Assembly (NCBI RefSeq): GCF_009914755.1
Contig: NC_060935.1
Reading direction: 5' to 3' (one strand)
DNA: 64,000 bases
From: the human T2T-CHM13v2.0 reference genome, Homo sapiens
Below, in pieces: positions 43,230 through 46,497 of the stretch. The translations under genes and the position numbers were made by a program. The notes beneath the pieces are model-generated. The model was not told the DNA's origin. It ran no database searches and saw only the letters and a list, made by a program, of their open reading frames with translations. Position 1 is the stretch's first letter; each line of letters opens with the position of its first letter.

Positions 43230-44300
43230 TGGGTCTTCCTCCCCAAACGTGGATGTTAGCAACGAGATCACAGAAGGGGTGTAGACACCCTGAGACATTG
43301 GAAGTAATATGATCCTCTCCCCACCTGGATACTGGGAAAGATACCACAGCGCGGGTATACGTTTCCTACGTTGTTGCGAGTAATATCATTCTTTTCCTTT
43401 CTGGATATTAGGGAGAATATCACAGGGGTGCTGTGCAATTACTTTGACATTGGGAGTAACATCATCCTCTATTTTCCTGGATATTGGGCACAAAAACACA
43501 AAAGGGTGAACAACCCCTGCGATATTTGGAGTAATATTATCCTCTCCCCTCACGATTATTAAGAACAATATCGTAGGGGTGGGGGATGAACACCCCCTTT
43601 CATGTTTGATATCATCCTCTTTCCCCCTGGATATTAGGAACAATATCAGGAAGGGATGTACAGACCCTGCGACCTTTGCTGTCATATAATTGTCTCTCCC
43701 CTAGATATTAGGAAAAAATGTCACTGGGGATGTGAACAGCCCTGCGATATTGAGAGTAGTATCATCCTCTCCCCCTTGCATATTGGGAACAACATCACAA
43801 GTGGGGTGTACTCCCCCTTGCATATTGGGAACAACATCACAAGTGGGGTGTACTGCCTCTGTGATATTGGGAGTGAAATTTTCCTCTCTTCCCCTGCACA
43901 TTAGGAAGGGTATCAGAGGGGTTGGTGTACATTCCCTGCGATATTCAACGTAACCTTATCCTCTCTCTCCCAGGGTATTCAGAACAATATTATAGGAGGG
44001 GTGTACACCCTCTGCGATATTGAGAGTCATATCATCCTCTTTCGCTCTGGATATTAGGAACAATATCACAGGGTTTTGTACCCCACCTGCGATATTGGGA
44101 GTCATATCATCCTCTCTCCCTGTGGATATTAGGAAGAGTATCACAGGGGTGTGGAAACCCCCTGCGGTCCTGGGAGTAATATCAGCCTCTCTCCCTCTGA
44201 AAATAGGAAGATTTTCACAGGGGTGTGTTAACCCCCTGCGATATTGGGAGTAAGATCATCCTCTCCACCCAGGAAAAGACTAACAAGGTCACGGGGGGTG
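43230..44300. repeat. SATR1 satellite block
   Basis: Paralogous to 22370-22655 followed by 21585-22335. Confidence 0.9.
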
Positions 44301-44600
44301 ACCTTGTAAATCCCAGCACTTTGGAAGGCCGAGGCTAGTGGATCACAAGGTCACAAGATCGAGACCAGCCTGGCCAATATGTTAAAACCCCATCTCTACT
44401 ACTAATACAAAAATTAGCCGGGTGTGGTGGTGTGCGCCTATAGTTCCAGCTACTCGGGAGGCTGAGGCAGGAGAATTGCTTGAACCTGGGAGGCAGAGGT
44501 TGTGGTCAGCCAAGATCGTGCCACTGCACTCCAGCCTGGGTGACAGAGCAAGACTCCGTCTCAAAAGATAAAAAAAAAAAAAAAAAAAAGAAAAACAAAA
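44301..44600 (+). mobile_element. 5'-truncated AluS fused to the satellite
   Basis: Starts at accttgtaaatcccagcactttgg. The first ~20 nt of the Alu and any left TSD are absent. Confidence 0.85.
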
Positions 44601-46497
44601 GAAGATGCCATCTAGGAGTTTCATAGCTAGAGAAGAGAAGTCAACGCCTGGCTTCAAAGGACAAGCTAACTCTCTCGTTAGGGCTAATGCAGCTGGTGAC
44701 TTTAAGTTGAAGCCAATGCTCATTTACTATTTAAAAAATCCTAGGGCCCTTGAGAATTATGCTGAATCTACTCTGCCTGTGCTCTATAAATGGAACAGCA
44801 AAGCCTAGATGACAGCACATCAGTTTACAGCATGGTTTCCTGAATATTTTAAACCCACAGTTGAAACCTAATACTCAGAAAGAAAGATTCCTTTTCAAAA
44901 CATTTATGCTCACTGGTAATGCACCTAAGCCAAGAGCTCTGATGGAGATGTACAAGGAGCTTAATGTTGTTTTCATGCCTACGAACGTAACATCCATTTT
45001 GCAGCCCAAGGATCAAGGAGTAATTCAACTTTCAAGCATTGCTATTTAAGAAATAAATTCTGTAAGGCTATATTTGCCATATAGATAGCGATTCCTCTGA
45101 TGGATCTAGGAAAGTAAATTAAAACCTTCTGGAAATAATTTACCATCTTGGATGCCATTAAGAATACTGGTGATTCATGGGAGGAGGTCACAGCATCAAC
45201 ATGAATGTGAATTTGGAAGAAGTTGATTCCAACCCTCCTAGTGGGCTTTCAAGACTTCAGTGGAGGAAATTAACTGCAGATGTGACAGAAATAGTATGAG
45301 AACTTGGCCAGGCATGGTGGCTCATGCCTGTAATCCCAGAACTTTGGATGGCTGAGGCGGGTGGATCACTTGAGGCCAGGAGTTTGAGACCAGCCTGGTC
45401 AACATGGTGAAACCCCATCTCTACTAAAATACAAAAAATTAGCCAGGTGTGGTGCTGCGTGTCTGTAATCCCAGCTACTCGGGAGGCTGAGGTGAGAGAA
45501 TTGCTTGAACCCGGGAGGCAGAGGTTGCAGTGAGCCGAGATCATGCCATTGCACTCCAGTCCTAGGTGACAGAGAGAGACTTTGTCTCGGGAAAAAAAAA
45601 AAAAGAAATAGTAAGAGAACTAGAAATAGAAATGGAACATGAGGATGTGACAGAATTACTGCAATCTCAAGATAAAACCTGAACAGATGAGGAGTTGCTT
45701 CTTATAGATGAGCAAAGTGGTTTCTTGAGATGAAATCTACTCCTGGTGAAGATGCTGCAAACATTATTGAAATGATAAAGATTTAGACTATGACATAAAC
45801 TTAGTTGATGAAGCAGTGGCTGGGTTTGGGAGAATTGACTCAAATTTTGAAAGAAGTTGTACTGTGGTTAAAATGGTATCAAACAGTATCACATGCTACA
45901 GAGAACTCTTTCATGAAAGGAAGAGTAGATTGATGTGGCAAATGTAATTGTCTTATTTTACAAAATTGCCACAGCCAGCCCAACCTTCAGCAATAACCAC
46001 CCTGATCTGTCAGCAGCTATCAACACTGAGGCAAGATTCTCCACTAGCAAAAAGATTACGACTCGCTGGCCGGGCACGGTGGCTCACGCCTGTAATCCCA
46101 GCACTTTGGGAGGCCGAGACGGGAGGATCACGAGGTCAGGAGATTGAGACCACCGTGGCTAACACGGTGAAACCCTGTCTCTACTAAAAATACAAAAAAT
46201 TAGCCGGGCGTGGTGGCAGGCACCTGTAGTCCCAGCTATTCGGGAGGCTGAGGCAGGAGAATGGCAAGAACCTGGGAGGTGGAGCTTGCAGTGAGCCGAG
46301 ATCGCCCCACTGCACTCCAGCCTGGGCAACAGTGCGAGACTCTGTCCCCAAAAAAAAAAAGAAAAAAAAAAGATTACGACTCACTGAAGGTTCAGAAAAT
46401 TGTTGGCTTATATACACTGAAAAACCAAAAAATGTGTGTGACTTGCTTTATTGTCATGATCTGGAACCAAACCTGGAACATCTCCAAGGTATGCCTG
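44600..46497 (+). mobile_element. Tigger1 DNA transposon, 3' part only, interrupted by Alus at 45306-45605 and 46068-46372
   Basis: Transposase remnant [18 protein letters not shown]...[15 protein letters not shown]. Ends in terminal repeat tctccaaggtatgcctg plus TA. Alu TSDs agaaatagta(t/a)gagaact and aaaaagattacgactc. Confidence 0.9.

What the first reader, a model, noticed from the sequence alone, without database searches (positions are those of the whole stretch)
44281..44640. Base-level candidate for the evolutionary breakpoint that split the XNDC1/TRPC2 locus
Seen: SATR sequence ends mid-unit (...aacaaggtcacggggggtg) and joins an Alu lacking its first ~20 nt. The Alu tail runs into the middle of a Tigger1 (aagaagatgccatctagg). 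The Tigger1 3' terminus is present at 46497, but its 5' part and the Alu's left TSD are missing. Repeat content also switches here from satellite/ERV mosaic to Alu-dense gene sequence. Recalled: mouse has Rnf121-Xndc1-Trpc2 adjacent, while human TRPC2 is a pseudogene on 11p15. Inference: the break fell inside an Alu nested in an intronic Tigger1.
Basis: partly seen in the sequence, partly recalled or inferred. Interest (0 to 1): 0.7.

Follow-up and report, generated by a model that had tools for sequence, protein, structure and literature searches.

The report
Exact cut that flipped chromosome 11

Summary
Confirmed and extended. The satellite–Alu–Tigger1 junction at 44,300–44,310 is unique in the genome. 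Its reciprocal partner lies at chr11:3,648,122–3,648,163, inverted. It holds the Tigger1 5' half, the 12-bp left target-site duplication, Alu bases 1–27 (the window resumes at 28) and the in-register rest of the satellite. XNDC1's 3' exons follow it. The far ends of the two duplicon blocks also pair up: a second host repeat is split, and a second satellite cut is in exact register. So 67.86 Mb was inverted, and the two blocks (216 and 329 kb) close into one ring of about 545 kb. The window junction carries a 9-nt fold-back copy of its own flank (10-bp perfect stem; null 4 of 4000), an end-joining scar. No junction shows homology between the joined sides. The inversion and the gene split are published. 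I found no base-level account in the texts searched, but key supplements were not seen. Whether end-joining made the inversion (0.55) or two ring insertions plus later homologous exchange did (0.33) needs ape genomes.

The parts
38195..43226 (+). SATR1 units plus endogenous-retrovirus remnant: middle of the last SATR-HERVE-SATR flank of the 11q13.4 duplicon block
   Evidence: 93% direct repeat of window 15,713-20,769; layout as in PMC2700803 Fig. 2 legend
43227..44300 (+). Left half of the cut SATR2 array; the right half is at chr11:3,648,122 downward on the minus strand
   Evidence: The chr4:3.89 Mb paralog is continuous across both halves, 93% and 96.5%
44283..44307 (+). Perfect 10-bp inverted repeat (44,283-44,292 with 44,298-44,307), 5-nt G loop, spanning the junction
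   Evidence: stems at 5 unbroken paralog sites are 4-7 bp
44301..44309 (+). 9-nt junction insert; 8 of 9 bases are the fold-back copy of the satellite flank
   Evidence: Sequence; absent from unbroken sites
44310..44597 (+). Alu from position 28 to the end of its A-tail; positions 1-27 are at chr11:3,648,151-3,648,125
44598..44609 (+). Right copy of the Alu's 12-bp target-site duplication; the identical left copy is at chr11:3,648,163-3,648,152
44598..46497 (+). Tigger1 3' half with two further Alus inside; the 5' half runs from chr11:3,648,152 to 3,650,583
   Evidence: In 10 of 11 independent copies the two halves abut with a 10-18 bp overlap; both terminal repeats flanked by TA
46976..47154 (-). 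XNDC1N exon 5, the last ancestral exon on this side; the break is in the following intron
   Evidence: Annotation given with the finding; outgroup proteins switch from here to chr11:3.655 Mb; PMC3170594 passage
48588..48674 (-). Part of an XNDC1N exon whose only other genomic copy lies inside the Tigger1 5' half at chr11:3,649,776-3,649,861
   Evidence: 82 of 87 identical, 2 matches genome-wide; 5.9 kb apart once the halves are rejoined
22308..22345 (+). Unbroken copy of the same satellite site (internal control)
   Evidence: The window side ends at the equivalent of 22,334 and the 11p15 side starts at 22,337
15345..15527 (-). Replacement last coding exon of human XNDC1N, inside the duplicon block and antisense to DEFB131B
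   Evidence: Annotation given with the finding; not tested here

Best explanation
This junction is one of two reciprocal joins of a break through an Alu inside a Tigger1 in XNDC1 intron 5, at one end of the 67.86-Mb chromosome 11 inversion, and it was likely made by non-homologous end-joining with a fold-back fill-in as one tandem duplicon block was likely cut inside its satellite and shared between the two ends. Shown: the Alu, its target-site duplication, the Tigger1 and the satellite each rejoin across the two loci; a second host repeat and a second satellite cut rejoin at the far ends of the two blocks; no junction has homology between the joined sides. Inferred: a block of about 545 kb (OR7E 'DA/Xiao' duplicons) entered the chromosome as a ring or in-register fragment opened in satellite. 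Breaks in its internal satellite and at the other host site, later or in the same event, were then joined crosswise. At the window junction the satellite end ending in GTG folded back on CAC five bases upstream, was extended by about 9 nt and was joined to the Alu, as polymerase-theta-type end-joining does. On this reading the duplicons at both ends are a product of the inversion, not its homologous substrate.
For: Partner junction unique and inverted. Alu bases 1-27 and 28 onward meet without loss. Identical 12-bp duplication on both sides. In 10 of 11 Tigger1 copies the two halves abut. Satellite halves are in register on the chr4, chr11:71.517, chr11:67.72 and window-internal unbroken copies, with about 6 bp duplicated. 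6 of 9 proteins tested (siamang, pig-tailed macaque, owl monkey, squirrel monkey, mouse lemur, Mastomys) map N-half to the window and C-half to chr11:3.655-3.668 Mb. An 87-bp exon copy links the two sides. Far ends: both flanks abut on an older empty-site paralog with 5 nt between the alignments, and the SATR1 ends fall at positions 129 and 49 of an 80-bp ruler. The 10-bp stem was reached in 4 of 4000 and 0 of 4000 simulated junctions and 0 of 200 shuffles folded as well. The two blocks are only 93-95% alike where compared; at the one core piece ranked against all copies the 11q13.4 copy came 12th of 18. PMC2700803 reports internal fission of such duplicons followed by inversion on chromosomes 3 and 7 (table note 5).
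Against: Two separate ring insertions followed by homologous exchange leave the same four junctions; nothing I ran separates the routes. Each present block holds one whole duplicon core, as two separate insertions would. No ape or monkey DNA could be aligned. The fold-back copy has 1 mismatch in 9, and TGTA in the insert could be Alu-derived. The SATR1 register rests on an 80-bp unit, so chance (about 1-3 in 80) or a preferred cut position could give it without a ring. Polymerase-theta involvement rests on the pattern alone. The orangutan protein at hand is partial and says nothing; the gorilla evidence is one predicted isoform.
Confidence: 0.55

Rival explanations
1. Two duplicon rings of about 250-300 kb inserted separately, one into the Alu and one into the LTR near KRTAP5, each opened in satellite; later homologous recombination between the two inverted copies flipped the 68 Mb. 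The window junction is then an insertion edge, though still the base at which XNDC1 was split.
For: Same four junctions predicted. The blocks are inverted paralogs at 93-95%. These duplicons spread actively in this period (PMC2700803), and recombination between such clusters is reported in present-day translocations (PMC10820794 passage).
Against: Needs two ring insertions plus an exchange at modest identity. Neither block is the other's closest relative at the core piece tested. No crossover point was seen, but only about 60 kb of the 545 kb was examined.
Confidence: 0.33
2. Canonical transposon-like insertion of a DA element into the Alu with a 6-bp target-site duplication that later decayed, and no fold-back synthesis.
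For: PMC2700803 reports 4-9 bp duplications, mostly 6. The insert resembles the last 6 bases of the Alu stub.
Against: Needs separate single-base additions within about 9 nt, whereas the fold-back explains 8 of 9 bases in one step. The ends are not full terminal repeats but one satellite site cut in two.
Confidence: 0.07
3. The junction is only a deletion or a duplicon edge, or the rearrangement happened in the orangutan lineage.
For: PMC5088589 places the 11q13.4/11p15.4 inversion 'within the orangutan lineage' (passage).
Against: Nothing is deleted: every missing part is at 11p15.4. Split insertions are the derived state, and they are in human. Six outgroup proteins span both sides. PMC3170594 and PMC10820794 place it on the human side.
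Confidence: 0.02

Closest known systems
Chromosome 11 inversion of the human-chimpanzee-gorilla ancestor, 11p15.4/11q13.4 (Cardone et al. 2007: not held, known through a passage of PMC10820794 and from recall)
   Same: Same event, same two bands, OR7E duplicons at both ends.
   Different: In the passage I saw it is given at band and gene-interval level, and the authors say they cannot tell whether the OR7E genes triggered it. Here four junctions are placed to the base.
Split of XNDR/XNDC1 in human and chimpanzee (PMC3170594, passages)
   Same: Exons 1-5 lie about 68 Mb from exons 6-10; intact in orangutan.
   Different: No breakpoint position or mechanism in the passages seen.
DA/Xiao composite duplicons (PMC2700803, abstract and parts 1-3 of 4; PMC5088589, passages)
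   Same: Both blocks are listed DA loci (11p-3 Mb, 11q-71 Mb). Ends fall in SATR. The 11q-71 junctions amplify in human, chimpanzee, bonobo and gorilla but not orangutan.
   Different: They describe full terminal repeats and 4-9 bp duplications. Here each pair of ends is one satellite site cut in two, host sites change by 0-4 bp, and the two loci close into one ring.
Segmental duplications made through circular DNA intermediates (PMC7450558, listing and start of abstract only)
   Same: The ends of the inserted material join up in register.
   Different: Here the ring is cut twice and tied to a large inversion; no donor locus with the whole ring was identified.
Snap-back synthesis-dependent microhomology-mediated or polymerase-theta end-joining (PMC2943611, PMC5728401: listing and start of abstract; details recalled)
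   Same: A short insert copied from the flank in inverted orientation, close to the break.
   Different: A germline evolutionary junction more than 10 million years old; the enzyme cannot be shown.

Membership tests
Reciprocal inversion breakpoint | A partner junction in inverted orientation holds the missing halves | tested here: met
   chr11:3,648,122-3,648,163
Reciprocal inversion breakpoint | Junctions are unique, not shared duplicon features | tested here: met
   1 match each at up to 3 mismatches; 8 of 8 other sites lack the Alu
Reciprocal inversion breakpoint | Outgroups are continuous across the break (protein level) | tested here: met
   6 of 9 proteins span both loci; the gorilla model, a partial orangutan protein and one unnamed 210-aa protein do not
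Reciprocal inversion breakpoint | Outgroup DNA shows a contiguous Alu-in-Tigger1 | not testable with these tools
   No primate genomes other than the window's own
Homologous (NAHR) breakpoint | The joined sides share long homology at the junction | tested here: not met
   Satellite joined to Alu or to an LTR at all four junctions
Homologous (NAHR) breakpoint | A crossover inside the two inverted blocks | not testable with these tools
   Only about 60 of 545 kb could be examined
Alu-Alu recombination | A chimeric full-length Alu at the junction | tested here: not met
   One Alu cut at 27/28, each piece joined to satellite
Canonical DA/Xiao insertion | Full SATR-HERVE-SATR repeat at both ends | tested here: not met
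   The 11p15 block starts inside SATR2 and ends inside SATR1
Canonical DA/Xiao insertion | 4-9 bp target-site duplication | tested here: inconclusive
   0-4 bp at the Alu and 0-3 bp at the LTR, depending on the parse
Duplication through a circular intermediate | Ends of the inserted material join in register | tested here: met
   SATR2 within about 6 bp in a non-uniform array; SATR1 exact modulo 80
Duplication through a circular intermediate | A donor locus with the unpermuted order | not tested
   The chr4:3.88-3.90 Mb copy is continuous at three pieces spanning about 15 kb around the SATR2 site; whole-block donor not sought
Snap-back end-joining (SD-MMEJ/TMEJ) | Insert copied in inverted orientation from within about 30 bp of the break | tested here: met
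   10-bp perfect stem, 5-nt loop; null 4 of 4000 and 0 of 4000
Snap-back end-joining (SD-MMEJ/TMEJ) | Dependence on polymerase theta | not testable with these tools
   Ancient event; pattern only

The most novel reading that the evidence does not exclude
OR7E 'DA' duplicons moved as DNA rings of several hundred kilobases that open in their satellites. The African-ape chromosome 11 inversion was a four-break end-joining event in which one 545-kb ring was cut twice and its two arcs patched both ends, so duplicons at this and similar breakpoints are debris of the rearrangement, not its homologous cause.
Probability: 0.3. Interest if true: 0.8.

Novelty: new member of a known kind. Interest (0 to 1): 0.58.

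Why it matters
Duplications at both ends of ape inversions are usually read as evidence of homologous recombination (PMC12058530 passage). For this inversion a 2023 paper says it cannot tell whether the OR7E genes triggered it. Four base-exact junctions, none homologous, turn that into one computable test: is there a reciprocal lineage switch inside the blocks or not. They also polarise the event to the human side from one genome alone, give exact markers for ape comparisons, and show how XNDC1 lost about 230 C-terminal residues and was cut off from TRPC2. TRPC2 is broken in other catarrhines too, so this break did not cause its loss.

Tried and rejected
Deletion at the junction: rejected, all missing parts were found at 11p15.4. 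Shared duplicon feature: rejected. Alu-Alu recombination: rejected, one Alu cut in two. The idea that the same satellite site is the start of the 7q22 or 11q13 (67.98 Mb) blocks: tested, both are unbroken there. A 14-kb query meant to map collinearity scored only 1 candidate and was uninformative for chr4. A search for element ends around SATR1 gave coordinates but no flanks, so ends of standalone Xiao copies were not examined. Nearest-paralog identities across the cut did not single out one donor. Main texts of PMC5991517 and PMC7605249 gave nothing on this break for the terms searched. Literature searches for a base-level account listed none by title or start of abstract; most listed papers were not opened. 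Earlier scan findings were not open. The paper reader answered that it was closed.

Full report
Observation. The window shows satellite to 44,300, nine further bases, a 5'-truncated Alu from 44,310, a 12-bp motif at 44,598-44,609 and then the 3' part of a DNA transposon ending at 46,497 before TA. A 36-nt pattern across the junction has 1 match in the genome at up to 3 mismatches.

The partner junction. The TRPC2 domain maps to chr11:3,662,704. In 120 kb fetched around it, chr11:3,648,122-3,648,163 reads on the minus strand: Tigger1 sequence, the same 12-bp motif, a 27-nt Alu 5' stub, two bases, then satellite. This junction is also unique. The stub is Alu positions 1-27 and the window's Alu resumes at 28; 77 of 105 Alu starts in the held sequence (overlapping loci counted more than once; search seed recalled) carry the unbroken motif across this point. 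Of 11 independent Tigger1 copies, 10 align to both halves so that they abut with an overlap of 10-18 bp (8 with 10-11); 1 copy (L043) did not reach the junction on the 11p15 side. The Tigger1 5' terminal repeat is at chr11:3,650,583, also beside TA.

The satellite is cut in register. The chr4:3.89 Mb paralog matches window 42,500-44,298 at 93% and continues directly into the 11p15 satellite at 96.5% over 1.2 kb and 95% over 8.1 kb. The window's own unbroken copy gives the same answer: this side ends at the equivalent of 22,334 and the other begins at 22,337. About 6 bp are present on both sides. The site was found at 8 other places in the held sequence; 8 of 8 lack the Alu.

The gene. Of 9 proteins tested, 6 (siamang, pig-tailed macaque, owl monkey, squirrel monkey, mouse lemur, Mastomys) map their first 175 or so residues to window exons and the rest to chr11:3.655-3.668 Mb. 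The gorilla model has no such C-terminal half. The orangutan protein is partial and one unnamed 210-aa protein stops at exon 5. An 87-bp piece of a window exon has its only other copy inside the Tigger1 5' half (82 of 87), 5.9 kb away once the halves are rejoined: an independent sign that the two sides were once neighbours.

The far ends. The 11q13.4 block starts at chr11:71,511,550 and the 11p15.4 block ends at 3,432,238, both in SATR1. Their outer flanks are the two halves of one LTR-type repeat. On an older paralog of the empty site (L054) they abut with 5 nt between the alignments. The two SATR1 ends fall at positions 129 and 49 of a ruler with an 80-bp unit, in exact register. So human differs from the inferred ancestor by inversion of 3,648,125-71,511,549 (67.86 Mb), with blocks of 216 and 329 kb in the two gaps, and the blocks join end to end into one ring of about 545 kb. 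I saw the four ends and about 60 kb of the blocks, not their whole interiors.

The scar. Bases 44,283-44,292 and 44,298-44,307 form a perfect 10-bp stem with a 5-nt loop. Eight of the nine inserted bases continue the fold-back copy. A stem of 10 or more arose in 4 of 4000 simulated junctions with random flanks and 0 of 4000 with the real flanks (the null took 44,300-44,308 as the insert); 5 unbroken sites have stems of 4-7 bp; 0 of 200 shuffles folded as well. This is the snap-back pattern of synthesis-dependent or polymerase-theta end-joining (PMC2943611 and PMC5728401 seen as listing and start of abstract; details recalled). The enzyme is inferred. A decayed 6-bp target duplication is a weaker parse.

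Mechanism. Shown: four junctions, none homologous, all nearly balanced. Inferred: at least one pair is an insertion of duplicon DNA, since papers report the duplicons absent in orangutan. I favour (0.55) that one tandem block came in as a ring or in-register fragment, and that breaks in its internal satellite and at the second host site were joined crosswise, later or in the same event. For: the blocks are only 93-95% alike where compared, and the 11q13.4 copy ranks 12th of 18 at one core piece; internal fission plus inversion is reported for this family on chromosomes 3 and 7. Against: two separate ring insertions followed by homologous exchange (0.33) leave identical junctions, each block holds one whole duplicon core, and such clusters do recombine today. 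That this is the base at which XNDC1 was split holds under both routes (about 0.95).

What is known. PMC3170594 (passages) reports the 68-Mb split in human and chimpanzee and an intact gene in orangutan. [quoted passage not shown] PMC5088589 (passages; supplement listed, not read) ties the breakpoints to these duplicons but writes 'within the orangutan lineage'; the split insertions show that the human state is derived. PMC2700803 (abstract and parts 1-3 of 4) amplified the 11q-71 Mb element's junctions in four African apes and not in orangutan, so the position of this edge was probably known to those authors as an insertion junction; their supplement was closed and Ji and Zhao 2008 was not seen. 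PMC12058530 (passages) says all 26 large rearrangements were identified at sequence level and dates the bracket to 10.6-10.9 and 18.2-19.6 Ma; its tables were too large to read. PMC7450558 (listing and start of abstract) describes circular intermediates for human duplications. Searches listed no base-level account of these junctions, but unseen supplements may hold one.

Verdict. Observation confirmed; interpretation supported and extended to four junctions. A known event, apparently newly resolved to the base, with an end-joining scar and a ring-closing duplicon layout that make an open question testable. Interest 0.58.

Noticed in passing
L030:9776-9861 (chr11:3,649,776-3,649,861) and window 48,588-48,674: An 87-bp copy of an XNDC1N exon sits inside the Tigger1 5' half, same sense as the gene, 82 of 87 identical, with only these two matches in the genome. 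Probably an older local templated insertion.
   Followed up: yes
L030:8898-9047: An inverted local copy of about 156 bp of L030:9590-9745 (Alu end plus Tigger1 piece), 90% identical, next to the exon copy. This intron had complex local repair apart from the inversion.
   Followed up: partly
window 43,226-43,307; L002, L003: The window's last flank lacks about 560 bp that other copies have; among the 19 other loci compared, the same gap is in the chr4:3.89 and chr4:4.135 Mb copies only.
   Followed up: partly
L003 (chr4:4,135,336 area): This copy leaves SATR2 for SATR1 about 15 nt past the site cut in the window: a second, apparently independent break near the same spot.
   Followed up: no
L054 (chr11:71,448,751-71,451,976): An older 79-85% paralog of the empty far target site; it also shares a 35-bp tandem array with the 11p15.4 flank, showing former adjacency of the two regions.
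   Followed up: yes
L028:5000-7000: The best of 18 other full-length copies of this duplicon core piece is only 95% identical, lower than expected for a copy made 11-19 million years ago from a surviving donor. Unexplained.
   Followed up: no
L016, L017, L019 (chr8): Three chromosome 8 copies share a 3-kb deletion from SATR2 into the OR7E core (equivalent of window 21,385-24,383).
   Followed up: no
L031:5345 to L032:282 (chr11:3,655,345-3,660,282): The orphaned XNDC1 3' exons still match the siamang protein at up to 96%; whether they are transcribed was not checked.
   Followed up: no
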